NCBI GenBank assembly: GCA_001275005.1
Contig: JWZX01002781.1
Location: forward strand, 1-43,662
From: Chrysochromulina tobinii
Lineage: Eukaryota
DNA: 43,662 nt
Direction: 5' to 3'
Position 1 is the stretch's first letter. Every line of letters starts with the position of its first letter. The position numbers and the translations under genes are program-made. Under the pieces are notes generated by a model that did no database searches, had not been told where the DNA came from, and worked only from the letters and a program-made list of their open reading frames with translations. Positions 3,622-43,662 of the stretch are shown piece by piece.

Positions 3622-4706
3622 ATCCTCGTCCTCGTCCTCGTCACCTGCGTCGCCTTGTCCCCGGACGAGCTGCCCGTCCGCTCGGTACGAGTCCGAGCCC
3701 GCATGCGCCAGCACAGCCCGGGCCGCCGAAGCGGCGAGGGCGAAGACACGAACGAGCAACGGCACTACCGGCCTCGCGCCGTGTTGAGCAGAGGATGGTG
3801 CCTGGCGCTCGCGCCGTGTTGAGCTGCGCAGCTGGCGGGGTGCGTGCGGATCTGCGGGCGGTGCGGCGCTGGGCACTGGCAGCTGGCACACCGCCGGGAA
3901 CGCAGGCGAGGCGAGCTCGAGCAGCGCAGCAAGGAGAGCCTTCGCCTCATATGGATGGAGCACCTGATGAGGGAGGCTATCGGAGGCACTCAGTGGCACT
4001 CGGAGGCACTCGGTGGCACGTAGAGGCACTCCGCGGCACTCAGAGGCACTCCGAGGAAATCGGTTCGCGTACATCCGGCGCCGTCTCAATCCAAGCACTG
4101 AGCACGAGCGACAACGCGCCGTCATGGGCACCCTCATGGGCGCCCTCGTGGGCGCCGAGCCGTTGGAGCGCATCGACGAGCATTCCACAGCCGAGAGGGG
4201 GCGGCGCGAGCGCTATCCTGGCGAGGACGACTAGAATGGCATGGCGCAGGCCCATGCGCGATGCCGACCGCAGCCATCGCACGAGCGCCCACAACAGCGC
4301 GTCGGCACGCTCGGCGAAGGCGCTCGGGGCGTGACGAACGAGGACGCCGAGTAACGGCACGCCACCGCTCGCCACCGCCGCCTCGGTGAGCTCGCCTCGG
4401 AGATTGCGGAGCGCCGTGTCGAGCCAGTGCATGCGGAGCGTCGTGCCGTCAGCCAGCGCGCCGTGTCGTGCAAAGTAGCCGAGGCACAAGCAGCCCTCGC
4501 GCAATACGGATGGCTGCGTCGCGTGGCTCACGACGGTTAACAGTGCGGGCAGCACTTCGGTGCATGCCGCCCGAGGCAACGCGTGAGTTCGGGGCCAGCG
4601 GCGGAGCAGCACGGTGTGTAGCAGCTCGAGAGCGGGCATGAGGGCTTCGTGGGAACTTGCATTCACATCGTCCCCCACCGTCCCCATATCATGCGACCCA
4701 TCCTCA

Positions 4707-4774
<68 letters not shown>

Positions 4775-7552
4775 TCCGGCCGCAGCGTGCATCCCTCCGG
4801 CAGCACTCACCGCCCCGCCGGCTGCCGCGTCCGCTGCGGCCGCCGCCTGGTCGAGTTGCATCTGGAGCTGCGGCACGTGAAGGAGCCATCAGTCGCACTC
4901 AGTCGCAATCAGTCGCACTCAGTCGCACTCAGTCGCACTCACCTGGAGCACGTGGAGGAGCACGGGAAGCAGGCGCTCCACCAGCCCAGGCATGGCCTCG
5001 AGCTGCGAGGCCATCGGCTTGATCGCATCCACCACCGCGTCACCCACAAGGGGGGATGTGCCCGAGACGGCGCCGCGCCCGAGCGAGTTGGACCAGAGCT
5101 GTAACAGCTGCGGCGTGAGCCACGGCTCCGCGGCGGCCGCCGCGTGAGCGTCGCGGCGCAGCAGACTCCCCACAGTGCGCAGGGCGCATAGCGTCGCCTC
5201 TTCGCCCTCTCGCAGCGCGAGGAGCGCCGTCGTGGGCACCAAACAGTCCAGCACGAGCGCCGTAGTGGTCGCCGCGCCCCCTGGCAGACGTTCACACCCC
5301 TCTGGAAGCTGTTCACACACCGTCTGGAGCGCGCCTGCATGGACCGCAATCAGGCGCACTCAGACGCACTCGGAGGCACCCGTCGAACGCAATCAGAGGT
5401 CATCAGAGGCCATCAGAGGTCCTCAGAGGCGATCAGTCGCAATCAGAGCCCATCAGCGCACCGCACGCGACCAGGCGCAGCTGAGTGCCCCACTGTGGCT
5501 CTAGTGCCGCGCGGATTGCTCCCACCAACTTAGCCAACGCCTCTCGCGGCAGCGAAGCCGCATAGCGCGCCGCCGCGCACAGGGTTCGTGCCCGGAGCAG
5601 CGGAGGCGTGTCGGGGTTCGTCAGATCGTGTCCCCACAGCTCCTCGAACGCATGTGCGGCGCTGAAGACGGCGGCGCGCCCGTTGGAGAGAGCCTTTTTG
5701 TTCGCCTGCGCCAAGTGGGACGCACCAAGCTCGAGTGCGAGGCAGGCAGCCTCTCGCAGCCGCCACCAGTGCGGCGCACCCGCTGTTCGGTTCGCATGCG
5801 CTTGGCTCAAGCGTGCGCCGATGGCGTGCAGGAGCGCCGTCGCGGCGCTCGCCGGGGCGGCGTCGAGCAGCTGCTCGAGCGCTTGGCGCACCTGCCATTA
5901 GGCGCAATCAGGCGTAATCAGGCGCAATCAGGCGTAATCAGGCGCAATCAGGCGCATGCAGACTCATACAGCAGCATTCATCTAGGGCGCTCGATGTCAT
6001 CAAAGGTCATCAGAGGGTCATCGTAGAATTCATCAGAGGTCTTCACGGCGCAATCCACACCAATCAGGGGAGCTGCTCACGGCCACGCGAGTGGAGACGG
6101 CGAATGACTCCGAGTCCTCATGTTGAAGGTACGCGTCCACATCTTCGCTCCACTCCTCCTCTTGTGCAGGCGTGATCGGGAGCAGCCCAATGCACCTGCA
6201 TGCAAACGCATGCCAACGCATCCTCAGACGCAATCCAGACGCAATCAGATGGGCTCAAGACGCCCTCAGACGCCCTCAGACGCCTTCAGAAGCACTCAGA
6301 CGCCCTCACAAGCACTCAGAAGCACGCAGAAGCACTCAGAAGCACTCAGATGCACATGTGGAAGAGGTCGGGCAATGCCGGCGTGAGTAGCCTGTGGAAC
6401 GTCGATGAATCCGCAAGCGCACTGAACACGTCGAGTAGCTCCGCCGCCAGAGCATCCGCGCCCTCCGTCTCTCCGTCCGAATCGTACCGCGACGGCGCGT
6501 TCCAAAGGCCCATCGCGCCGCCAGGCTCCGTCGCCTCGAGCGTGCGCTCATGCAGCCGGACGGCTCGCAGCAGCTGTGCGCCGAGCGGAGGCAATATGGC
6601 TTCCTTATTAGGCAGGAGCGCACGTGGGAGCATCTGGATGAAGAGTCGCAACAGGCGAACGAGCGCCACCTGCAGCGCGCAGCTCTCACCGTCCGCACCC
6701 TCTGCGCCCGCCACAGCGCCCGCCACGCCCGCCACGCCCGCGACGCCCGCCACGCCCGCCGGCGCGTCTGCACAGCCCGCGAGCGCCTCGAGGATGAGTG
6801 ACGCCCACACAGCCAACGGCCCCTTTTGGAGCTTGCGCAGGACCGGGTCGTCGTCGGCGCAGAGCATGGTGAGCCGTTCGAGCAGCTTATGCACCACCTG
6901 ATGAGGGGGGGGGCAGTCCGGTAGGCGCTCACGGGGGCGTTCCAAACACGCCATCAGCGCCCCTCAGTTGCGAGCACACCCGCACGGTACGCGCTCGGTC
7001 CTTGGGCCTTGCCGTTGGCGAGGCGACTACTGGGGCGAGCAGCGGCGAAAGCACATCGAGCGTCTCGATCAGCTGAGCCTGATCAAGCTCGCCGGCGCAG
7101 AGCTCGAGGCAGCGCAGGACGCCTGCGGCTGCCTCCGACGAGCCCTCGCCGCCCGCGCTCGCCGCGCTCTGGAGCCGTTGGATGAGCTCTTGCACCATCC
7201 CAGGCCACTCGTCGGGAAAGTCGTGCTGCGCAATGGCGGCCACGACCATGGAGACGGCGGTGCGGATCTTGCCGGATCGGTCGGCGAGGCACGTGGGCAG
7301 CGCGCCTCGGATCGCCGCCTTCTCTGCGTCAGGTACGATGCCTCGCATCCACTGGGAGCGCACAAGCCGCTTCAGGATCAGGCCGGATAGCTGGCGCACC
7401 GGCAAGGGCTGAGCCGAATCGACAAGGATACTCGCGAGGCAGAGCGCAAATCCGGGTGTGCCCTGCAGCGCGTCGAGCCCAGCCTCGGCCGCACGCGGAT
7501 CGAGCTGCATCTGGCCGAGGTGGTGCAACACCACCGCGTGAAGGTCAGACAT
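3232..7552 (-). CDS. IPO9: Importin-9-like karyopherin, 7 exons: 7552-6980, 6897-6356, 6195-6081, 5891-5462, 5334-4943, 4867-4073, 3963-3232 (about 1192 aa)
   Basis: IBN_N-like VRQLSGLILKRLVRSQW; AIAQHDFPDEWPGMV; EEEWSEDVDAYLQHED; WWRLREAACLAL; acidic C-terminal loop; all six GT-AG junctions keep frame (3579 nt). Confidence 0.85.
3964..4072 (-). other. Importin-9 intron 6 (109 nt, phase 0) with GAGTGCC-core decamers
   Basis: GAT|GTACGC ... CCCTCATCAG|GTG joins ETAPD to VLHPYEAK. Confidence 0.8.
4868..4942 (-). other. Importin-9 intron 5 (75 nt, phase 0), GAGTGCGACT x5; alternative in-frame acceptor at 4862
   Basis: CAG|GTGAGT ... GCCGCAG|CTC; its removal eliminates an in-frame stop. Confidence 0.8.
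5335..5461 (-). other. Importin-9 intron 4 (127 nt, phase 1) with degenerate decamer repeats
   Basis: G|GTGCGC ... CATGCAG|GC gives VACGALQTVC. Confidence 0.75.
5892..6080 (-). other. Importin-9 intron 3 (189 nt, phase 0) containing a (TGATT(G/A)CGCC)n decamer array
   Basis: GCC|GTGAGC ... CTAATGGCAG|GTG; CTAAT branch-like motif. Confidence 0.8.
6196..6355 (-). other. Importin-9 intron 2 (160 nt, phase 2), built of about 10-nt TCTGAGTGCT / TCTGAGGGCG units
   Basis: AT|GTGCAT ... GCATGCAG|GTGCATT restores LFHMCIGLL. Confidence 0.8.
6898..6979 (-). other. Importin-9 intron 1 (82 nt, phase 0)
   Basis: CGG|GTGTGC ... CCCCCTCATCAG|GTG joins ARTVR to VVHKLL. Confidence 0.75.
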
Positions 7553-8002: not shown

Positions 8003-10168
8003 TGTGGATGCGATGCTCAAATCGGCGAACATCAAGGGAGACGATACGTTTTTGGACAGCAACGCTCAGGAGCGTGAACGTGGCATTACCATTCTTGCAA
8101 AGAATGCGGCGCTCACATGGAATGGCGTCAAGGTCAACATCGTCGACACTCCTGGCCACGCCGACTTTGGCGGCGAGGTGGAGCGTGTGCTCGGCATGGT
8201 GGACGCCGTGCTGCTGCTTGTGGATGCGGCGGAGGGCCCGAAACCGCAGACGCGCTTCGTGCTCAAAAAGGCGCTTGCCATGGGCCACAAGGTGCTTGTC
8301 GTCGTTAACAAGATCGACAAGCCTGCTGCGCGTCCTGACTACGTGCTCGACAAGACCTTCGACCTCTTCTGCGAGCTGGGCGCTACGGACGAGCAGACCG
8401 ACTTCCCTGTGGTGTACACGTCGGCGATCAACAAGGTCGCTGGCCACGAACCGAATGCGATCGGCACGGACATGTCGGCCCTCTTCGACAAGATCATGAC
8501 GCTCCCGAAACCCAAGGTGGCGAACGACAAGCCTCTCCAGCTCCAGATCTCGAACATCGGCTCGGACCCGTTCATCGGGCGGCTGGGCATCGGACGCATC
8601 ACCGCGGGCAAGCTGGTCAAGAACACGCCCATCGGCCTCTCTGCGGGCCCTGGCGCGAAGGTTCGCCAGGTCAAGGTCTCCGAGCTCTTCAACTTCCAGT
8701 CGGCTGGCCGCGTGCCGATTGAGAGCGCCTCCGCGGGCGAGATTGTCGTCTTCTCGGGCGTGCCCGACTTCAACATCGGTGACACGATCGTCGACCTGGC
8801 CAACCCGATGCCACTCGAGCCCATCGAGGTCGAGCAGCCCACGATGTCGATCACTATGGGTGTGAACAAGTCTCCATTCGCGGGTCGTTCGGGTGCCAAA
8901 TACCTGACGGGGCGCAACATCCGCGATCGGCTGATGAAGGAGCTCGAGACGAACGTGGCGATGCGCGTCGAGGACACCGACGACGGCGATACGGTGCTCG
9001 TCTCTGGGCGTGGGTTGCTCCATTTGACCGTGCTGATCGAGAACATGCGGCGGGAGAGCTTCGAGCTCATGGTTGGCCCTCCGATGGTGATTGAGAAGAC
9101 CGAGAATGGCGAGCGCCTCGAGCCGTTTGAGCTGGTGGGCAGATTGAAGGCAGATTGAAGGCAGATTGAAGGCAGATTGAAGCCAGATTGAAGCCAGATT
9201 GAAGCCAGATTGAAGCCGTTTGAGCCGTTTGGTGGGCAGATTGAAGGCAGATTGAAGGCAGATTGAATGCTGCCTCGAATCTCCTCTGAGGGCCGCGGAG
9301 GGCTGCTGATGGCCACTGATGGCCGCTGAGAGTGCTGCTGTGATTGCTTCGGCAGGTGGACATCGAGCTGCCCGCGGAATACGCCTCGGCCGCGATCTCC
9401 CTGCTCAACGAGCGCAAGGGCAACATGATCGACATGACCGCGGTGACCAAGGAGGGAGGGCAGGTGAAATACTGAACGAGTTGCCCTGAGTGCCCCCTAA
9501 TTGGCCTTAATTAAATGCAATTGCCATACCTGCCTCGACTGCAGGTGATCCAATTCGAGGTGCCTGCCCGTGGCATGTCGGGCGTCAAGTCCAAGCTGCT
9601 CTCTGCGACACGCGGTCTCGCCGTGATGAGCTCCACCTTCGCGGGCTACAAGCCGTACGCGGGTGACTTCGGGCAGCGCCAGAAGGGCAATCTGCTCTCG
9701 GCCGAGGCGGGCACCGCCACCGCGTATGCGATGCACAAGCTCGAGGACCGCGGCGCCTTCTTCTCCAGCCCCGGCGATGAGGTGTACGAGAACCAGATTG
9801 TCGGCGTCAACGCCAAGTCGGGCGATCTCAAGGCAAACATCTGCAGGTGATGAGCACTGATTGCATTCGGATTGCATTCAGATTGCATTCAGATTGCATT
9901 CTGAGTGCCTCTGATTGACTCTTGAGTGGCTCTGAGTGCCTCTGAGTGCCTCTGAGTGCCTCTGAGCGTCTCGCTCATCAGGGCGAAGGCGCTGACGAAC
10001 ATGCGCTCGGCCGGCGCGGATGAAAAGTCGACCACCTCGACCCCGCTGCAACTCACTCTTGAGGATGCAGTCGAGTACGTCATCGACGGCGAGTACGTCG
10101 AGGTGACGCCCGACGCGATCCGCATGGGCATGGCGCCCAAGATGAACAAGTTTGGCCAGAAGGTGTGA
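7818..10168 (+). CDS. typA: TypA/BipA translational GTPase, probably plastid-targeted; exons 7818-9134, 9356-9463, 9545-9846, 9982-10168 (about 637 aa)
   Basis: [81 protein letters not shown]; hydrophobic leader followed by a transit-like segment; junctions keep frame (1914 nt). Confidence 0.95.
9135..9355 (+). other. TypA intron 1 (221 nt, phase 0) with an 11-nt (G/C)CAGATTGAAG array
   Basis: CTG|GTGGGC ... TTCGGCAG|GTG joins LEPFEL to VDIELP. Confidence 0.85.
9464..9544 (+). other. TypA intron 2 (81 nt, phase 0)
   Basis: CAG|GTGAAA ... CTAAT ... CTGCAG|GTG. Confidence 0.85.
9847..9981 (+). other. TypA intron 3 (135 nt, phase 2) with GATTGCATTC(A/G) and CTGAGTGCCT arrays
   Basis: AG|GTGATG ... 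GCTCATCAG|G gives [12 protein letters not shown]. Confidence 0.85.
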
Positions 10169-15052: not shown

Positions 15053-17339
15053 CGCACCGAGCTGCAGTGCCTGACTGTAGGCGGCCTCCGCCACCGTCGC
15101 CTCCCCACGCGCCATCGCGAGCTCCGCGTAGATGAGCATCGCGCTGGGCGCCGTCCCGGGCTCCGCGGCGGCCGCCGCCGCGAGCGCGTGTTGAGCGAGG
15201 GCCGCGGCGCCGCGCCGCGCCGCATCGGCGCCCAGCAAGAGCCAGCTGCTCGCACGTTGAGCGCTGCGCTGGGCGCGGCTCACGCCGACGGCGCCGTCGC
15301 GAGCACCGGTCGGCGCCTGTGAGTTCCGAATGAGCATCTTGAGGATCGACCTCCCGCACGAGGCGACCGGTGCTTGCGACGGCGGCGCGGCCGGAGCCGG
15401 CAGGGGCGCGCGGGCGCCCAGTACGGCGCTGGGCAGGCTGGCGCCCATCACGGCGCTAGCCAGGCGCCCATCTTGGCGCGCCTCCGAGGCGAGCAGCGGC
15501 GGCAGTGTGGTACATTCGCGTCCGAGGACGCACCATGCCTCCCAGTCGCACGGGTGGGCATGGACGAGCGCGCAGGCTGCTCGGCGCCGCGCGTGTGCAG
15601 TCGCCCGCACAGCGGCGAGCGCAGCGGCGGCCTCTACTACGACGGCGTCCGCCGGACCTGTGGCGGGCGATGTGCAGTGCTGCATTCCTGTGGCGGTGGC
15701 GGCGGCATTCCTAATAAGGGAGTCATCTGGGTCGGCGTTCCTAATCAGGGAGTCATCTGGGTCGGCGTTCCTAATCAGGGTGATGACGATGAGCCGCTGA
15801 GCCATGGGCGGCAGCTCTGCACTCGCCTCGAGCACCCCGAGCTGCAGCCAGTGCAGCTCCCTAGACGGGTGCACGCTGGCCGCGCGCGCGCGCCGCAGCA
15901 GCCGGGCCGCCGCCGCGAGCTCGAGCGCCGATCGCCCCACATCTCCCGACGCGAGGTTGAATCTCGCCTCGACCACGTGCGTGCGGGCGCGGCCCTCGAG
16001 AGCGGTTACGCAGCCGGGACACGCACGCACGGCCGTGGCGTACAGCGCCGCCGCCTCCGTGCACATGCCTTGCGCCTCCTCATCACCACCGTCGCGCCCG
16101 TCGTCGCGTGTGCCCGCCTCGCGCGCCGTGCTGAGCACCATCAAGAGGCTCCCAAGCCGGCAATGGAGGAGCGACCAGGCTGCGTCTGCTATCGGTGGCG
16201 GCGCGGCAGAGGCCGCGAGCAGCGCCTGCGTCTGGCGCGGGTCCGCAGGCCACGCGGTAGTGACGAATCCCAAGCGGAGAGGCGGCGCTGGTGGCGGCGC
16301 CGGCGCTGGCGGTGACGGCTGCTGCGACGGGGCGTTGTGTTGAGCGTCATCTGCTGCTGGCTGGGCGGCGGGTGACGTGGCAGCGGGTGACGTGGCAGCG
16401 GGTGACGTGGCAGCGGGTGACGTGGCGGCGGGTGACGTGTCAGCGGTCTTGATGGTCATATGTGCCTCGCGTCGTTGGCCGCACAGCCGCAGTAGCTCCC
16501 GTAGGCACCCGACCGCCGCCGCCGGCCGCCCTTGCAGCTCATACGCCACCGAGAGACCTTCCCAAGCCACCAGCGTTGCGTCCGATGCGTCACCGGGCAG
16601 AGCGCTGTCCCGGGCGTTGCGGAAGCGGGCGGCAGCAGAGCGGATGGTCGCCTGGCGCTCACCATGGCGCTCACGGTCGCGCGGGCCCGCCGTCGGTCGC
16701 TCCTCCTCGGACCCGTCGGTGGCGCGAGCGCACCCTGCCACGGGCATGTTCACACCTGCCAACTCGTGCGCTCCAAGCAGCGCGTCTGCCCATGGCGCCT
16801 CACCCGCTGCCACGCGAGAGAGCAACTCGACGCAGGCCGCTCGGGTCGACGCGGCTGACGTGGCGTCGTCGAGCCAGTCGCGAAGCGCGCGCGCCAATCT
16901 GCTCTGCGGGTATGCCGCGGCAAGGCGCTGCACGAGCGAGGCTGCCGACACGCCTTCGTACTCAGTGCGAAGGAGCTCGACCACCGTCAGCAGCTCAAGG
17001 GCTTCGCACGACGTCATGCATGCGGCCAACGCTGCGTCGGCATCGATTGAGCTCAGCGTACGAACGGCTGCGCGCAACGGTCCGGGGGGGCCTTGTACAG
17101 CGGCAAGCTCGATGAGGCCCTGCAGCGCCGGCGGCTCCAGCGGTCGAAGCCGCACTGGCCGAGCGGTAAGCACTTGCCGCCTCCGCGCGGCGGCCGAGCT
17201 GCTTGCAGATGTGAGCTTCGAGGAGACTGAGGTGGTACGCCGACGGATGGCGCACGGTGAGCCTACGAATCAGCGTGAGGCTCGACTGCAAGTTGCCGTC
17301 GGCCACGGCGCTGCGGCAAGCCTCGAGCACGTCAGCCAT
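13625..17339 (-). CDS. Large TPR protein, Ski3/TTC37-like; needs a 1-nt frame correction at about 17156
   Basis: N-terminal TPR frame (17339-17157) plus the 1182-aa frame join as AYRSAVRLRPLEPPALQGL, resembling the Ski3/TTC37 N-terminal TPR; further TPR-like units such as AEAAYSQALQL and AARLVNRAPWRADGFACLG. Confidence 0.6.
15703..15780 (-). repeat. In-frame 30-bp tandem repeat (LIRNADPDDS x about 2.5)
   Basis: Direct repeats visible in DNA and translation. Confidence 0.85.
16365..16439 (-). repeat. In-frame 15-bp tandem repeat (TSPAA x5)
   Basis: GCGGGTGACGTGGC(A/G) units on the plus strand. Confidence 0.85.
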
Positions 17340-21500: not shown

Positions 21501-21689
21501 GGCCAGCGCTTTGCCATCGGCTGCGATGTGTACGTGAAACGGAGCAACGGAGAGGAGAGCATCGCCTTTGTGATGGAGTACGATGCGGCGAATAAGGCGT
21601 ACATGGTGGAGCTTGAGGCGGCTGGCTCTGGCCAGATCAAGCAGTGCCGAGAAGATATAATGCGAGAGGGGCCATCTGCCGCTGCCTAA
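18549..21689 (+). CDS. Multi-pass membrane protein with helical repeats, an IQ motif and a C-terminal small beta-barrel domain
   Basis: Several hydrophobic segments in the N-terminal half; IQ-like AATKVQAAMRGKSVR; terminal IGCDVYVKRSNG...YMVEL segment. Confidence 0.75.
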   Translation: MFKWVSPRFSGVRHTTPAKKSAAKGPHFGNDGEPYLEGKKLLFGYSLSDEVEAGMVPLALMPPPGTFSPVMAPEEVEPDEGELRRRSVQARMDAAGYSVLPRVPSDGAAGLMAITAGLGIAPIAAAAAAAAQLSFAAIGISAVLAGGGTAAAVCSQAPEPYTAYKNRLSTTPAAELLPYVCCLGGESIRRRALRLRVLTRTAHTLELLMGVAALGLAIDLYMAVPFGFSRYYPFITVGDPSYGAQASPLAASYELLIALVCLGSFRRWLSTAPYDRLRQMWTGEAYGRLADAPMTYEEFLAKNQPKLGLEEKPCLARVGEAFEEAFEELSDILLRRVFGSKTVEELSVYLGRLHMCFGRCLGATGRWQPIPPELANSRDPLWNTPSFVSDLWFEFGVNVRAQPLKCLVALACFTLAADAVLVYRHVVPPHSIEISHELFGSVIISGGSPLQGVDMNRLWLSTYGLFFTSFLVLLSTHRAFRKIVRPLEFEDCERAESERIEERTAKRTARQHRTHMSWLLAASYESPDECRHLVGEIDEAIKQATAFRSTLPFPNEPPKLTYYDEDPEFGWKLLPPPAEDLAAYLPIEFTRPLSPPGRQPDFGSPPPSPPPSPPSVMKTHTKTKFSRPTSLVLRPSWCLAFDKAIQAAVEGLKAIRVQLVALERVEAIANMEEPNVDELQIALRVAASILVPAHALELATRPRGAPDSNLVTFVAEPPDMAPSVLETVSSSMGSAIAGAGSWVSGLGSAIGESMGKGIGEYVESRRREEAARERILTETAKDLLEVSVAGLRQALADAEGVLSASELLGHREKCDQAEKAQATLKAAMELVEGHVLLIDPAAIRAAVAACKDAGIDERALAFLVAFAADAAEAQTNDPVMRALKACTAPPDLMQIDVSKLRRALGEAKAAGIPDALIARYEATLLEAEQLQVASSGPDTNAAATKVQAAMRGKSVRSAREKKAPAALPAAPAAAAAPRSKPAVTGQRFAIGCDVYVKRSNGEESIAFVMEYDAANKAYMVELEAAGSGQIKQCREDIMREGPSAAA

Positions 21690-21756
21690 TGCTAATGCCA
21701 GAGGGGCCATCTGCCGCTGCCTAATTCTAATGCGAGAGGGGCCATCTGCCGCTGCC
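21658..21756 (+). repeat. 35-bp tandem triplication overlapping the stop codon
   Basis: TAATGC(G/C)AGAGGGGCCATCTGCCGCTGCC at 21658, 21693 and 21728. Confidence 0.9.
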
Positions 21757-32200: not shown

Positions 32201-32991
32201 GAGGTCAGACGAGTAGCCATCGCGCGGGATGCGTGGGTGCTAGAGATGAGACGTCGAGCCTCGGCAAGGGGATCGAGTTGGGCAGAGCCGAACCTGGCAG
32301 GCGAGAGGAGCCAAGCGGCCTGGACTCCCCGCGCGCTGATTGGTCGATACGCACCCCACCGACCGAACGCTCTCTCCTCTCCCCTCCCGACCGAACTGGT
32401 CCTCCCCTCACGCAAACGGGCATGGAGCCATCGCCCAGACTCGAGCTCCTCAGCGAGGAGCCATCCCAAGAGTGTGGAACTGACAAACCTTCGCCGATGG
32501 AGCCATCGCCCAGATTCGAGCTCCTCATCGAGGAGCCATCCCAAGAGTGTGGAACTGACAAACCTTCGCCGATGGAGCCATCGCCCAGATTCGAGCTCCT
32601 CATCGAGGAGCCATCCCAAGAGTGTGGAACTGACGAACCTTCGCCGACCCTATCATCGACCCATTCGCCGAACCTATCGCCAAATCTATCGCCGACCCTG
32701 TCACGGGCGAAACCATTCGCTTCATTGCGGCCCAAGTCTCCCTTCACACCTCCACGGCGTGAACGGCGTGAGGTAGTGCCACCATTCCAAGCACCATTCA
32801 TGGAGGTCCATCCGCTGGCATTGCCGAATCACGCTCGGGACGACGCGCCCGATGACGTGGAGAATGCACGAGGCGCGTGGCGGCAGAGGAGAATGCACGA
32901 GGCGAGAGCGCAATTTGCTGCGAAGCAGAAGGCGCGAGCAACAGCAGCAGGCCAAGGCTCTAGGCGCGACGAGGCGTTTCTGAACGCATGA
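24532..32991 (+). CDS. Giant intronless multidomain membrane protein: PDZ, TM, Pro-rich, LamG/concanavalin-like, Pro-rich, TM, WW, SH3
   Basis: About 2820 uninterrupted codons; PDZ about 26839-27102 (GRFGVSF...VGDIVLSINGIPL); LamG about 28843-29340 (YTIEAWIRP...DGEWHHVATTFDG...FFHGAIRGVRIYD); WW about 30229-30318; SH3 about 30334-30492. Confidence 0.85.
32422..32646 (+). repeat. In-frame 75-bp tandem repeat x3 (MEPSPRxELLxEEPSQECGTDxPSP)
   Basis: Near-identical DNA units. Confidence 0.9.
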
Positions 32992-34566: not shown

Positions 34567-34954
34567 ATGGCTCCGAGTGCGACGACGATAATTCTTGTTG
34601 GAGCGGCTGGCGCGGCTGCGATCTATCTGTTCATCTTGCGCCAGCGGCGACTCGCTATGCTGCCTACGGACGAGGAGCAAGCATGGCTCGACGAGCAGCT
34701 CCGCACTCCGCGCCCGCCCTGCATGTCTCCCGGGAGCCAGGTGTCGGATGAGGAGCAAAAGTGGCTTGACAAGCAAATCCAGAACGTGGAGACGGAGGAC
34801 GTAAGGCTCTGCCCCGCCACTGTAGGTCGGATGCATTCTCAAAACTCCGGTTCGCTTCCCTCGCGCGCAGATGCTGGACGACGCGAGGCAAGCGGCCTAC
34901 GCTCCTGGGGAGGGCAGCAGCCCGAAGAAGCCGCCGTCGAAGAAGGGCCAATGA
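34567..34954 (+). CDS. Small single-pass membrane protein (about 105 aa), exons 34567-34800 and 34871-34954
   Basis: N-terminal hydrophobic anchor followed by RQRR; GAC|GTAAGG ... CGCGCAG|ATG intron (70 nt); duplicated DEEQxWLDxQ motif. Confidence 0.6.
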
Positions 34955-36447: not shown

Positions 36448-37278
36448 ATGCCAAAGCTCCATGGCCAGCCACGCGTGTTCACGCGGCGCGGCATAGCGCG
36501 GCCGCCATACAATCCAGCGTTGGAAAAGTATTTTCACCAACGGAGGAACCTCTTCAGCAAGTACGATTGCGGATGTGCGCTGGACGCGGAAGGATGGTAC
36601 TCCGCGACCCCTGAGGCAGCTGCGGCGATCACAGCACAAATCATGGAGACAGATGGGGCGTCGCGCGGCAGCATCTTCGTCGATGCGTTCGTTGGTACTG
36701 GCAGCAACGCAATCCAGCAGGCGCTTCACGACCCCGCCGGCGTTGTAATCGCCATCGACATAGATCCCGCCAAGATTGCGATGGCGCGCCACAATGCGGC
36801 CATCTATGGAGTGGCTGCTCGGATTCACTTTGTCATCGGTGACTTCGCGTCTTTAGCCCCACGCTTGCGCGCGCATGCCGTCTTCTTATCGCCTCCTTGG
36901 GGAGGGCCCGAGTACGGCGCTTCGGACACTGGCGGCTTCCGCATCGCTTCGATTCGCTGCGGCAGTGCGGACGACGCGGACGGTTACCGGCTGTTTGAGC
37001 TCGCTGCGACGATTGCGCCGACCGTGGCATATTATCTTCCCGTCAGCACGGCAGAGGAGGATATCCTCGCGCTGACAGCGCGCCATGCGTCCCAGCGCTG
37101 CGAGTGCGTCCACTTAGCCTGGGGCGGGGAAAAGAAGCGGCGGCCGCGTGCTGTCCTGGCGTGCTTCCACGGACCACGACTACCGAGTCACCTCGCGCTC
37201 TCGCCGCCCGGTCTGCTACACTCGACAGCGAATTGCGATGCCCGATCGGAACCATCACAGCGTACTTGGGCTCGTTAG
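36448..37278 (+). CDS. TGS1: Trimethylguanosine synthase (RNA cap hypermethylase)
   Basis: KYFHQRRNLFSKYD...LDAEGWYSATPE, VDAFVGTGSNAIQ, IAIDIDPAKI.MARHNAAIYGV, VFLSPPWGGPEY. Confidence 0.93.
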   Translation: MPKLHGQPRVFTRRGIARPPYNPALEKYFHQRRNLFSKYDCGCALDAEGWYSATPEAAAAITAQIMETDGASRGSIFVDAFVGTGSNAIQQALHDPAGVVIAIDIDPAKIAMARHNAAIYGVAARIHFVIGDFASLAPRLRAHAVFLSPPWGGPEYGASDTGGFRIASIRCGSADDADGYRLFELAATIAPTVAYYLPVSTAEEDILALTARHASQRCECVHLAWGGEKKRRPRAVLACFHGPRLPSHLALSPPGLLHSTANCDARSEPSQRTWAR

Positions 37279-37834
37279 CGGGACCTTGTACTGTAGCTTA
37301 CGTCCGGTCGTCGGCGTCCCGTGTGCCGGTTTGCGTTGACCGTTGTCACACTCGCCGGGTTGCGTGGGGTCACTGCAAAGCCGAGCTTGCATGGTCATCT
37401 CTGCATGGTTGGAAAGCTGCCTAAGGACGAGACTGATTACACTAATCATTCCTTCTCATGGACGCGTGACGAAGACGAGACTGAGTGACGGTGCATAGGC
37501 TATAGCTCGGCTGCATACGAAGGAGACGAAACCGCGCGACACGAATCCGGCGTTCACGACAAACCGAAACCCGCGCCGTGGAGCGCGGATCGAGACCGGA
37601 CTGCGGACGGGACATAATGCCACTCCGGACGTGGCACACTCTTGACCCGCGCAGGCTCCCACACAGACCCAGGTCACCCGCCGACATATATCACACAGAC
37701 TTACGTCCACACACCGCCTCAGACCACGAGTCCAGCAGTCCACAACAGAGAGTGCTATCATCCGCCTGAACGCGACCTCTGCCATGCCACCCGGCCGTCG
37801 CGTGCACTGGTGCACATACGGATGCGTCAACTGC

Positions 37835-39716: not shown

Positions 39717-41183
39717 TCAGTCAACGGATACCCATCGGCCCGAGGGGCTCAGCGATCCCCTCGTTTCTGCATCCGCTCGAGGACCGTTGTCGAGGAGCCG
39801 CTCGCCGTTCACGGCTTCGACCTGGAGGAGAGGCGGCCGAACGCGCCGCCGACAGCTCACGCAGCTGCTGGTCAAGATCTGTAGCACGATCGTCAAGATG
39901 ACCAGGTACCCGCAGATGACGCACGCTCGCTGGAAGCCGATCAACTCTACCAGGCCGCCGCCCGCAAGCGGCCCCGTGGCTTCACCTGCAGTGAACGCCA
40001 ACATCGAGAGCGCCGCGATAGAGTCGGAGCTCTGATCCACAGAGAGGCCGCCCAGCTCCGCCGTGTGCACCATGATCGCGTTCACTGGGGTGAAGGCGAG
40101 CGCGCCGCCAATGCCCATCATGCAGAGAGAGCCGAGGGCGAGGCCGATGGCGCCTGCGCGAGTACCTTGCGCCAAGAAGGGCACCGGCGAGAGCGGGTAG
40201 ATTTTTCCATGAGTATTGTTCCCTCCGATCTCGGACCATGGCTCCGGCGCCATCGTGATGAAACAGGCGGAGAGGATCGAAAGCCCGATGCTCAGAGCAG
40301 TCAGCGTGCCGAGACGCCTTGCCACCGGCCCAGCGCATGCAGAGCAGAGCGCGTAGGTGAAGAGCGAGGATGAGTACATGAGGCCTACCTGCAACTCGTC
40401 GAGCGCGTAGGGCGGGTTCGCGAGGAATGGCTCGATGGTCGGATCCAGGAAACCGACTGTGAACATGAGGATGTAGCAGACGAAGAGGCTCGAGAGGATG
40501 ACCGGCATTCGCAGCAGCCGTCCCATGGCGCCGCCGCTGCCCTCTTCCACAACCTCCACGCTGAGTGGGATGATTGTCATGTAGAGTGCAAGCAGCCCGA
40601 GCGTGCTCCCCGAGCAGAAAAAGGGCGCCTCGTAACCGATAGCCTCGTCGAGGCCGCCGCCGATTAACGGGCCAATCATGATGCCCACACCGCGCGCGGC
40701 CTCGGACCACCCGATGGCGTCGCCGACAAGTTCGGAAGGCACGCTGCGCATCAACAGTCCGACGGCAGCCACCTCCGAGAGCCCCGCAGCCAGACCCTGC
40801 ACAGCGCGAAGCGAAGCGCACGCGACCACAAAGGCGGTCGTCGTGGTCGCCAGGTCGGTGAAGGCGAATGAAAATGCTGTGGCCGCTTGCAGAAAGCACG
40901 CGGCCCTCAGCACGCCAGCTCCGCCAAAGCGCTGGCACAAGAAAGGTGCGACCGGCGTCACCAACAGCGCCACAGCCTGATGGAGGCCAAAGAGCATGCC
41001 GGTGACTGTCGGAGTGCAGCCGTGACGCTCGGCCGCCTCCGGGAAGAATGGAACGAGCATCGAAAAGTTGAGGTCGCTGATCGCGCACACGGCGCAGGAG
41101 ATCACGATCGGCACCACTTTCACTTTCTGCTCCGCCGAATGTGCGTCCCGTATGAGGGGGGTGGACACACCGACAGCCGGCAT
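39717..41183 (-). CDS. MFS transporter, SLC18B1-like
   Basis: About 12 TM segments; FSMLVPFFPEAA, LRAVQGLAAG, GIMIGPLIGGGL...GYEAPFF, GFLDPTIEPFL, GPLAGGGLV. Confidence 0.85.
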   Translation of the reverse strand: MPAVGVSTPLIRDAHSAEQKVKVVPIVISCAVCAISDLNFSMLVPFFPEAAERHGCTPTVTGMLFGLHQAVALLVTPVAPFLCQRFGGAGVLRAACFLQAATAFSFAFTDLATTTTAFVVACASLRAVQGLAAGLSEVAAVGLLMRSVPSELVGDAIGWSEAARGVGIMIGPLIGGGLDEAIGYEAPFFCSGSTLGLLALYMTIIPLSVEVVEEGSGGAMGRLLRMPVILSSLFVCYILMFTVGFLDPTIEPFLANPPYALDELQVGLMYSSSLFTYALCSACAGPVARRLGTLTALSIGLSILSACFITMAPEPWSEIGGNNTHGKIYPLSPVPFLAQGTRAGAIGLALGSLCMMGIGGALAFTPVNAIMVHTAELGGLSVDQSSDSIAALSMLAFTAGEATGPLAGGGLVELIGFQRACVICGYLVILTIVLQILTSSCVSCRRRVRPPLLQVEAVNGERLLDNGPRADAETRGSLSPSGRWVSVD

Positions 41184-41486: not shown

Positions 41487-43662
41487 TCACTCAAACTGGA
41501 CGCGCGCGTGCAGATGCCGCGCCGCGGCGGCGTCGCCCGGGCGCGCGCCAACGTACCGATGCGCGTACACCATGCGCGGGTGCTGCCGGCGCACGGCGAC
41601 AGCCTGCCCCCCGCCCGCGCCCGTGAGCCGGCGCGGCAGCCAGCGAAGCTCGGGCATCGTATGGTTGGCGGCCGTCGGCTCCCAGAGCGGCGACGCGTCC
41701 CGGTAGGCTCCAAAGCGCGGGTGGACTGTCTGGCCGTAAAAGTCGGAGCCGCGCCGCTTGAGCCACTCGCCCACCGCGTCGCTCAGCCTCGCGCCCACGC
41801 CGAAGCCCTGGAACTCGGGCAGCACGACTGTGCGGTGCGCGCGCTGTGGCCGATCGGTCGCCTCGCTCGTCGGCTTGCCTGAGTGAGGGATGGTCGCCAA
41901 TCAAAGAGGCAATCAATGGTCATCAGCGACGCTCGCAACGGCTTGCCTGAGTGAGGGATGGTCGCCACGAACCCCGCGGGCACGTACACGCTCGCCTCGT
42001 CCTCCGCGTCGTGGCGAGCGTCCTCCGCGTCGCGAGCCACCGCCTCGGCGTCGTGGTGAGCGTCCTCCGCGTCCGCCGCCGCGGTTCCCGCCCGTGTCAC
42101 CGCCGCCTCCGCCCTCCCGCCGAGCGCCACGCGCGCCTCGAGCAGGCAGGTCGATGCGACCGTTGAGAGCTGCGCCGTCTTGTAGTGGTAGCTGTGGAAG
42201 CGCTGCCACTCGGCGGGTGCGCATGGGCGTAGCCGCAGGGCGAGCTGTGGAAAGGGGAGGCGCACGCTGCCGCCGTCGACGAGGCCGGTGGCGCCGGTGC
42301 TGGCGCCGGCGGCGGAGGGTTTGGCGGCGAGAGGGTCGCTGATGACCTTTGATTGCCTCTCGATTGCCTCTTGATTGCCTTTGTTGTCGTCGGAGGGATT
42401 GGCGGCGAGTGACGCTCGCGCGGCCGCCAGCGCTAGCCAACCACGCAAGCCCATCGCCTCGTGAGCCATCGCCTCGTGAGCCGTCGCCTCGTGAGCCGTC
42501 GCCTCGTCCATCGCCTCGTCCATCGCCTCGTGAGCCGTCGCGCCCGCTGCCGCGCCCGCTGCCGCCTTCTCCACGTCCCTCGTCGCCTCCGCCTCGGTTT
42601 CGGCGCCCTCCGCCTCAGCGCCCTCCGCCCGTGTAGCTGCCGTCGGCTGGAGCCAGAAGCACGTGGCCGAGCCCGCCTCAAAGATCCAATCGGGCTCGAG
42701 GGCACCGCGCGCCACGTGCTCAATGTGGCAGCCCGCGAGCACCACCCCGGCGCATCGCAGCAGCGACGGCCGCGCAGCCGCCCCACCAGCGCCCACGACG
42801 GCGCCGCCGGAGCCGCCGGGCTGAGCTTGAGCGGTCGAGGCCCGCAGCGCGCCGCTGAGCGCGCGGCTGATGCGCAGCGTCGTGTCGCCATCCCACGCGG
42901 AGCCAAACTCGTCAAAGAGGGCGAGCCGCGCGCCTGATCGCTCGTCGTCCCCCGCCTCGTCCCCGTCCCCTTTGGCCGGCTCGGCCGCGCCGATCTCCAA
43001 GGCCAGCAGCGCCTGGGCACGCTCGCCGCTCGAGCACGCGCCGTACCGCCACGCGAGCGCCGACGGCAGCGGCGCGGCCACCGCACGCAGGCAGCGCGCC
43101 GCTTGCTCGGAGCTGCCAAAGGCGTCGCTCAGTCGGCGAGCGCGCCGCCAGGCGGCGCTCAAGACGGCGCTCCCGTCGAGGGCGGCTCGACCGAATTGGG
43201 CAGCGAGCAGTGCGGACTTGGCCGCGCCCGACGGGCCGGTCAGCACACCAAGGCGGAAGGGGCCGAGCGCGTCGCGGCTCGGGAAGGGCGGCAGCCGGCG
43301 CGCGCAGGTGCCGTCGCTCGGCAGGTCGAAGAAGGTCTCGACGATGCGCGTCGCCTCGGTCGCCTCGACGTGCGCCGCGAGCACGCGCCCGCCCCGCGGC
43401 GGCGGCGCGCACGCGTCGTGCTGAGCGGGAGGCGTGACGTCGTGGCAGAGGGCATCAGAGACCATCAAAGGCACTCAGGGGTACTACTCAGAAGTCATCA
43501 GTGCTCATCACCTGGAAGGGAGGCGCGTCGTCGTAGCAGCGCTGGGAGAGCACCCGTAGGCCACACCGGCGGAGGCTCGCGAGGAAGAGCTCGCCGCCGC
43601 GGGGGAGGTGCGATGGGGGGAGGTGCGATGGGGGGAGGTGCGATGGCGGGAGGTGCGATGGG
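41487..43662 (-). CDS. ABC-type ATPase fused to a GNAT acetyltransferase, 5' end outside the window; exons >43662-43512, 43420-41947, 41878-41487
   Basis: Walker A-like LTGPSGAAKS, signature-like SSGE, Walker B LFDEFGS, H-loop LAGCH...LEPDWIF; WQRFHSYHY; acetyl-CoA motif RTVVLPEFQGFGVG...TVHP. Confidence 0.8.
41879..41946 (-). other. GC-AG intron (68 nt, phase 1) bounded by a perfect 29-bp direct repeat
   Basis: CAG|GCAAGC ... CCCTCACTCAG|GCAAGC; removal joins the 41783-43474 and 41487-41900 ORFs. Confidence 0.8.
43421..43511 (-). other. GT-AG intron (91 nt, phase 0) in the ABC-GNAT gene
   Basis: CAG|GTGATGAGCACTGAT ... CCCGCTCAG|CAC; upstream frame stays open to the window edge. Confidence 0.7.
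43602..43662 (-). repeat. 15-bp tandem repeat (PSHLP x4), probably coding
   Basis: GGGAGGTGCGATGG(G/C) units on the plus strand. Confidence 0.8.

What the first reader, a model, noticed from the sequence alone, without database searches (positions are those of the whole stretch)
42313..42409. Intron-type repeat inserted antisense and in frame within an exon
Seen: 42335-42360 is the reverse complement (25/26 nt) of 41905-41930, the filler of the 68-nt intron about 400 bp away. It lies between imperfect direct repeats (CTCGCCGCCAATCCCTCCG and CTCGCCGCCAAACCCTCCG) spaced 78 nt apart, a multiple of 3, and translates as an odd NKGNQEAIERQSKVISDP insert. Inference: the same process inserts in either orientation. 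Sense copies become introns, while antisense copies survive only if in frame. The inverted pair could also base-pair in the pre-mRNA.
Basis: partly seen in the sequence, partly recalled or inferred. Interest (0 to 1): 0.75.

Follow-up and report, generated by a model that had tools for sequence, protein, structure and literature searches.

The report
Exon insert that seeded an intron
In a gene of a haptophyte alga, a 78-base repeat insertion stays in frame inside an exon, and a back-to-front copy of part of it sits 400 bases downstream in a likely intron that one group of close relatives lacks, so the exon insert probably served as the template for a newly gained intron, a rare case where the source of a new intron can be pointed to.

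Summary
In detail: 25/26 inverted match, 78-nt spacing, open frame. RNA contigs of two studies bridge the 78 nt without a gap. All 34 close alleles spanning the site keep the peptide, in 25- or 26-residue form; 0 of 15 distant homologues have it. Seven alleles of one divergent haplotype carry the exonic insert but read straight through the '68-nt intron', while 26 others have both. The shared 26-mer occurs only at this locus in the metagenome collection (5 of 5 stretches) and beats the window's other 8 repeat arrays (15-21/26) and 3000 simulated ones (max 22/26). Best reading: the older in-frame exonic insert was copied, inverted, into a 29-36-nt exon duplication containing AG|GC, creating a new GC-AG intron, which then expanded into a 1-11-unit array. 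Splicing of that intron is inferred from homologues; no spliced joint was seen, and precise loss in the intron-less lineage is not excluded. The scan earlier noted duplication-flanked introns elsewhere in this genome (e1-2577349).

The parts
42332..42390 (-). 59-nt decamer-repeat filler in purine orientation on the mRNA; exonic, in frame, no stop in any frame; likely template of intron 2
   Evidence: bridged by RNA contigs X2 and X7; peptide in 34 of 34 close alleles
42391..42409 (-). first copy of the 19-22-nt exon duplication flanking the filler
   Evidence: D14; LAANP twice in 23 of 28 proteins
42313..42331 (-). second copy of the duplication (one mismatch in this allele, at 42320)
   Evidence: X15 contig reads A at 42320
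42335..42360 (-). exonic arm of the inverted repeat (locus-private 26-mer)
41905..41930 (-). intronic arm, 25/26 here, 26/26 in other units and strains
   Evidence: (T41917A in X2, X15, X16)
41879..41946 (-). intron 2, GC..AG, one 68-nt unit of an array of 1 to 11 units; absent from the K-form haplotype; splicing inferred
41939..41967 (-). 29-nt exon segment containing AG|GC, upstream copy (supplies the GC donor)
   Evidence: D9
41871..41899 (-). 29-nt perfect duplicate, downstream copy (supplies the AG acceptor)
   Evidence: D9
43421..43511 (-). intron 1, GT..AG, 91 nt: decamer filler plus a diverged copy of the preceding exon end (19/22 core) ending in AG
   Evidence: D16; homologues P0096 and P0173 read across the site
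41947..43420 (-). exon 2 of an ATPase-GNAT fusion gene; the insert lies in the variable low-complexity linker
   Evidence: (AAA_16 E 0.023, below cut-off)
41487..41878 (-). exon 3, GNAT-like part
   Evidence: Acetyltransf_7 E 0.003, below cut-off
43512..43662 (-). end of exon 1 (gene runs off the window)
   Evidence: continues in L003-L005

Best explanation
The 78-nt segment is an in-frame exonic insertion (a 19-22-nt exon duplication around a decamer-repeat filler) that is kept in RNA contigs, and it likely served later as the inverted template for the filler of neighbouring intron 2, which was probably gained in one lineage only. Step 1 (anatomy shown, cause inferred): a repair or slippage event duplicated about 20 nt of exon and left a filler in the purine orientation. 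That strand has no stop and no branch-like YTRAY motif, the length is a multiple of 3 and the site is a variable linker, so it stayed as 25-26 extra residues. Step 2 (inferred): at a break or stalled fork about 400 nt downstream, a strand end annealed at a short GAG microhomology to the insert's junction on the opposite strand, copied about 30-37 nt, and rejoined 29-36 nt back in the exon. The duplicated exon piece holds AG|GC and so gives both splice sites; the inverted copy brings three YTRAY motifs and the pyrimidine strand, giving a GC-AG intron that leaves the protein unchanged. Step 3 (array shown, cause inferred): the perfect 29-nt repeats seeded tandem expansion to as many as 11 units. 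Step 4 (predicted, untested): in a one-unit allele the exonic arm pairs over two of the three YTRAY motifs; extra units free the last unit.
For: Locus-private match: 5 of 5 metagenome stretches are this locus; 25-26/26 against 15-21 for 8 other arrays and at most 22 in 3000 simulations. Order: of 33 proteins covering both sites, 7 (K-form; 5 distinct stretches) have the insert without intron 2 and 26 (E/D-form; 18 distinct) have both; none of 34 lacks the insert. The intron-less proteins begin with residues translated from unspliced intron 1 and lie on 2.4-6.0-kb contigs, so they look genomic. Intron-bearing alleles form one side of a branch (SH-aLRT 100, quick tree), with about ten fixed substitutions nearby, so intron-less alleles are not nested among them. 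15 of 15 distant homologues read through the intron-2 site and 0 of 15 have the peptide. The exonic filler (59 nt) is longer than and contains the copied block. The match runs into the insert's junction with a GAG microhomology shared with the start of exon 3. The K residue of the intron-less haplotype, if coded AAG, would raise the match from 34/37 to 35/37 (read by eye; codon inferred). Retention: with a control GT..AG splice at 34800-34871 in X2 and X3 and no X2 cover of intergenic bins 36948-37559. Pairing: z -4.6, 0 of 100 shuffles; P paired with the arm 1.0 and 0.98 in one unit, 0.0-0.01 for the last unit in 4- and 11-unit alleles.
Against: No spliced joint for intron 1 or 2 was seen in 5 RNA runs (X1, X2, X3, X7, X8); unspliced contigs were (X8 41536-41951, X2 43415-43616, X8 43436-43632). 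So the contigs that bridge the 78 nt could be pre-mRNA, and splicing of intron 2 is inferred from homology only. No DNA of the intron-less haplotype could be fetched; its status rests on gene calls. P0065 carries markers of the intron-bearing haplotype yet reads through the site: a spliced transcript, a chimera, or a precise loss. Perfect 29-nt repeats make precise loss easy, so gain before the split and loss in the K-form lineage is possible. The tree root is unreliable (outgroup branches 3-6 changes per column). A template 400 nt away and a 30-37-nt tract are untypical of polymerase-theta insertions (mostly within 30 bp; under 0.1% distal; PMC7165422 passages). No close relative without the exonic insert was found, and distant linkers cannot be aligned (8-60 residues), so the exact 26-residue gap is not shown.
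Confidence: 0.6

Rival explanations
1. Intron first: intron 2 is the older element, the exonic insert is an inverted copy of its filler that later gained two decamers, and the K-form lineage lost intron 2 precisely by recombination between the 29-nt repeats.
For: Perfect repeats allow exact deletion (microhomology-mediated intron loss is proposed in PMC3020277, passages); unit number varies 1-11 between assemblies; P0065 may be such a loss; a multi-unit array offers more template copies.
Against: Needs one more event; the exonic filler is longer and has diverged between haplotypes; intron-less alleles form a separate haplotype, not a subset of intron-bearing ones; 15 of 15 outgroups read through the site.
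Confidence: 0.15
2. Independent insertions from a common pool: one process inserts decamer filler in either orientation with a target duplication; the close match arises from a shared donor or from later gene conversion between the inverted arms.
Against: The exact 26-mer is found at no other locus; other arrays reach 15-21/26; duplications are 14-36 nt and variable, not 3-9 nt; the match includes the insert's junction. Conversion between arms cannot be excluded.
Confidence: 0.15
3. The intron-less alleles are artefacts (spliced transcripts or assembler collapse of the array to zero units), so the order of events is unknown.
For: Only gene calls were seen; arrays collapse variably in assemblies (1, 4, 11 units in near-identical flanks); P0065 shows a read-through on the other haplotype.
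Against: Complete association with a distinct haplotype (7 of 7 K-form absent, 26 of 26 E/D-form present); intron 1 is unspliced in the same records; contigs reach 6 kb.
Confidence: 0.07
4. The 78 nt, or most of it, is spliced out (for example the in-frame GT..AG option 42413-42339, 75 nt), so it is an odd intron and not an exonic insert.
For: In-frame GT/GC..AG options exist; the gene's other introns also appear unspliced in the RNA contigs.
Against: No exact 78-nt GT/GC..AG excision exists; no YTRAY on the sense strand; two studies' contigs bridge it with no joint; the frame is open in 34 of 34 alleles through a 3-nt change.
Confidence: 0.03

Closest known systems
[quoted passage not shown]
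   Same: A duplicated exon piece containing AG|GY gives both splice sites and leaves the protein unchanged.
   Different: The two copies are separated by a 39-nt filler copied, inverted, from another part of the same exon; the donor is GC; the unit then expanded to an array.
New introns from double-strand-break repair in Daphnia pulex (PMC4202315 passages; PMC3020277 passages)
   Same: Presence/absence polymorphism, AT-richer insert, direct repeat of the exon end at the other end of the intron, later internal repeats.
   Different: Repeats there are 4-12 bp, here 29-36 nt; sources there are mostly unknown (possible hits for 4 of 90), here a local source is identified.
Locally templated insertions of polymerase theta, inverse-repeat class (PMC7165422 passages)
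   Same: Reverse-complement copy of flanking DNA, short microhomology, AT-rich template in GC-rich surroundings.
   Different: Template typically within 30 bp and tracts rarely over 10 bp per round; here about 400 nt away and 30-37 nt, closer to a replication template switch (recalled, not from a call).
Introners, including those of Chrysochromulina sp. (PMC9860276 passages and section 7)
   Same: Recent introns that co-opt splice sites from a duplicated target; GC donors occur.
   Different: Introners are dispersed families with 3-9-bp duplications (4 bp in Chrysochromulina sp.); here the block is private to one locus and duplications are long and variable.
10-11-bp intronic tandem repeats with strand bias in Emiliania huxleyi (Read et al. 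2013; recalled, paper not held)
   Same: Decamer arrays in haptophyte introns with one strand preferred (9 of 9 here).
   Different: Here one copy sits on the other strand inside an exon and appears to have templated an intron.

Membership tests
Introner | several dispersed, highly similar copies in unrelated genes | tested here: not met
   exact 26-mer only at this locus in metagenome contigs (5 of 5); other window arrays 15-21/26; no whole genome held
Introner | 3-9-bp target-site duplication where present | tested here: not met
   19-22 nt (exonic insert), 29-36 nt (intron 2), about 28 nt (intron 1)
Introner | terminal inverted repeats (optional) | tested here: not met
   none listed within the insert or intron 2 among the 25 longest of 59 inverted pairs shown
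Introner | removed by splicing | tested here: not met
   for the 78-nt insert: bridged by RNA contigs of two studies
Tandem-duplication intron gain (intron 2) | duplicated exon segment contains AG|GY and supplies both splice sites | tested here: met
   29-nt perfect repeat, intron 41946-41879 GC..AG
Tandem-duplication intron gain (intron 2) | protein unchanged after splicing; relatives lack the intron | tested here: met
   7 K-form proteins and 15 of 15 distant homologues read through
Tandem-duplication intron gain (intron 2) | splicing shown in RNA | tested here: inconclusive
   no joint in 5 RNA runs; with a 29-nt repeat only one 31-mer is unique to the spliced form, so contigs can hardly show it (inference); P0065 may be a spliced product
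Tandem-duplication intron gain (intron 2) | intron consists only of duplicated gene sequence in direct orientation | tested here: not met
   39-nt filler is an inverted copy from 400 nt away
Polymerase-theta templated insertion | insert identical to flanking DNA, direct or inverted, with junction microhomology | tested here: met
   33-34/37 inverted match, GAG microhomology
Polymerase-theta templated insertion | template typically within about 30 bp, tract short | tested here: not met
   396 nt between arms, 30-37-nt tract against PMC7165422
Polymerase-theta templated insertion | dependence on POLQ | not testable with these tools
   needs genetics

The most novel reading that the evidence does not exclude
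Chrysochromulina makes introns by a transposon-free, self-feeding process: decamer arrays are copied from neighbouring DNA into 15-36-nt exon duplications, and the strand decides the fate. Pyrimidine-strand copies bring branch motifs and become introns; purine-strand copies are stop-free, persist as peptide inserts when in frame, and act as seeds for the next intron. The resulting exon-intron duplex hides branch motifs and favours expansion of the intron into an array.
Probability: 0.25. Interest if true: 0.8.

Novelty: new variant of a known kind. Interest (0 to 1): 0.6.

Why it matters
The source of most newly gained introns is unknown (stated in PMC4202315 and PMC4974935). Here a presence/absence intron has a candidate source 400 nt away in the same exon, with junction microhomology, a duplication that explains both splice sites, and living alleles of the before and after states. 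It gives a testable, transposon-free route for the repeat-filled, strand-biased introns of haptophytes: neighbouring arrays should be more alike than distant ones, and exonic copies should be purine-strand and in frame. Nine full-text searches listed no paper on an intron templated by an inverted exonic repeat insert in haptophytes; the library lacks most subscription papers and I did not read supplements (such as the Introner family tables of PMC9860276), which may bear on this.

Tried and rejected
No whole genome or record handles were held, so the genome-wide count of exonic antisense copies could not be done. Searches for DNA of the intron-less haplotype in viral contigs (none) and genome contigs (one distant Bradyrhizobium hit) failed. 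A plus-strand gene for which the insert would be a normal intron was rejected: stops in all three plus frames and no exact 78-nt GT..AG cut, and all homology is on the minus strand. An assembly artefact for the insert was rejected: the 97-nt segment is identical in L001, L003, L004, L005, L001 being a diverged allele. Intron 1 as the source of the exonic filler: only 8 nt exact and 77% of 22 nt, not demonstrable. Polarity by outgroup residues was uninformative because the linker does not align; the careful tree did not finish, so the quick tree was used, and the one-clade test for intron-less alleles did not finish (6 duplicate rows dropped, the insert's own columns left in). Lack of RNA cover in parts of the gene was not used. 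The sequence look-up in earlier findings gave only an unrelated hit. The C. tobin genome paper (PMC4580454 passages) says nothing on these repeats.

Full report
Setting. The window is GC-rich eukaryotic DNA. A protein in the same 90% cluster as this gene's product is named Chrysochromulina tobinii by NCBI (P0024) and a distant homologue is from Chrysotila, so the organism is a haptophyte. The finding lies in exon 2 of a minus-strand gene that joins an ATPase-like part to a GNAT-like part (weak Pfam hits below cut-off; 692 relatives at E 0.001). Intron 1 is 43511-43421 (GT..AG) and intron 2 is 41946-41879 (GC..AG). Homologues read across both sites: P0096 and P0173 at intron 1, and 15 of 15 parsed distant proteins (some near-duplicates) at intron 2.

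Observation. The inverted match is 25/26, 28/30 and 33/37 with one gap. The flanking repeats are spaced 78 nt. The match is not generic. The other 8 decamer arrays of the window reach 15-21 of 26, and 3000 arrays simulated from 44 of their units reach at most 22 (a small pool, so a rough null). The exact 26-mer occurs in 5 stretches of metagenome contigs, all the same locus, although the neighbouring part 42349-42380 is high-copy in community runs. The scan finds exact matches only and repeats can break assemblies, so this bounds but does not exclude copies elsewhere.

Corrections. The 68-nt intron is one unit of an array: 1 unit in the window and L004, 4 in L005, 11 in L003, at least 5 in L002; 6 of 11 units in L003 match the exonic arm exactly. 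L003-L005 have flanks near-identical to the window, so part of this spread may be assembly collapse. The flanking duplication of the exonic insert is perfect in most alleles (23 of 28).

Is it exonic? Contig X2 (polyA, 588 nt, 42175-42746) and contig X7 (another study, 42258-42511) bridge it without a gap. X2 and X3 show a control GT..AG splice at 34800-34871, and X2 has no cover in intergenic bins 36948-37559. Against this, none of 5 RNA runs shows a spliced joint for this gene's own introns, and unspliced contigs are present, so pre-mRNA is not excluded. Independent support: 34 of 34 close proteins spanning the linker keep the peptide, 20 in a 26-residue and 14 in a 25-residue form, so the frame survived a length change. 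On the mRNA strand the filler has no stop in any frame and no YTRAY; reversed, it has stops in all three frames and three YTRAY. All 9 intronic arrays of the window, in an importin-beta-like gene, a TypA-like GTPase gene and this gene, carry the pyrimidine strand as sense (intron status read from sequence, not from RNA).

Which came first? Of 33 proteins covering both sites, 26 (E/D form; 18 distinct stretches) run into intron 2 and 7 (K form; 5 distinct) read straight through it; all have the exonic insert (some records are the same sequence filed twice). The read-through proteins start with residues translated from unspliced intron 1 and lie on contigs of 2.4-6.0 kb, which points to genomic DNA. 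Intron-bearing alleles are one side of a branch with SH-aLRT 100 (quick tree) and differ at about ten fixed positions nearby. With outgroups lacking both features, the simplest history is insert first, intron 2 later on the intron-bearing stem. The root is weak, and precise loss through the 29-nt repeats remains possible. One short record, P0065, has markers of the intron-bearing haplotype but no intron 2; it may be a spliced transcript, a chimera or a loss.

Mechanism. Intron 2 begins like exon 3 (8 identical bases, a small change, then a shared six-base stretch), then switches at a GAG microhomology into the reverse complement of the insert's junction and filler, and ends in the duplicated exon piece. 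So a 29-36-nt duplication containing AG|GC supplies both splice sites and an inverted local copy supplies three YTRAY motifs. This is inferred from junction anatomy; the enzyme is unknown. Whether this affects splicing is untested; neutral expansion is enough to explain the array.

Comparison. Intron 2 works like tandem-duplication intron gain (PMC4974935, abstract and introduction) combined with a repair-type filler as in Daphnia (PMC4202315, PMC3020277, passages). It fails the Introner tests of dispersed copies and short duplications (PMC9860276, passages and section 7). It resembles inverse templated insertions of polymerase theta but with a more distant, longer template (PMC7165422, passages). 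Strand-biased decamer repeats in haptophyte introns are recalled from the Emiliania genome paper, which was not held. An earlier scan note (e1-2577349) reports duplication-flanked introns elsewhere in this genome and reads them as a mobile family; I saw the same footprint in intron 1, intron 2 and one importin intron but no dispersed copies of this block.

Verdict. New variant of a known kind, interest 0.6. It is one locus, and the genome-wide rule could not be tested.

Noticed in passing
window 43421-43539: Intron 1 has the same build as intron 2 (decamer filler plus a diverged copy of the exon end supplying the AG); homologues P0096 and P0173 read across it, so it may be an older gain by the same process.
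   Followed up: partly
window 4862-4960: An importin-beta-like gene intron ends in an imperfect copy (13/14 core) of the preceding exon end; four more decamer introns lie in this gene (3964-6352).
   Followed up: partly
window 9848-9981: The last intron of the TypA-like gene begins with the same 15 bases as intron 1 of the ATPase-GNAT gene and has short inverted ends, more like an Introner than intron 2 is.
   Followed up: no
window 9105-9356: A TypA-like intron contains internal copies of its own exon-intron junction between 11-nt repeat runs.
   Followed up: no
window 42450-42600 and 41989-42072: In-frame 12-, 15- and 21-nt exonic repeat tracts vary in copy number among alleles, all keeping the frame.
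   Followed up: partly
P0024 (window 41487-43420 and 40900-41100): The public gene model fuses this ATPase-GNAT gene to the downstream MFS transporter and mis-splices intron 2; the two look like separate genes.
   Followed up: partly
window 41487-43662: The gene is a eukaryotic member of an ABC-type ATPase-GNAT fusion family with prokaryote-like relatives (P0076 carries PF00005 and PF00583); longer homologues have a second ATPase-like part.
   Followed up: no
window 34801-34870: A 70-nt GT..AG intron without decamer repeats is spliced in RNA runs X2 and X3.
   Followed up: yes
window 10400-41800: No decamer arrays were found in 31 kb of mostly intron-poor genes; the arrays cluster in three genes at the two ends of the window, as local copying would predict.
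   Followed up: no
window 15703-15780, 21658-21756, 32422-32647: Exonic tandem repeats of 30, 35 and 75 nt; the 35-nt one is not a multiple of 3 and contains stops near a gene end.
   Followed up: no
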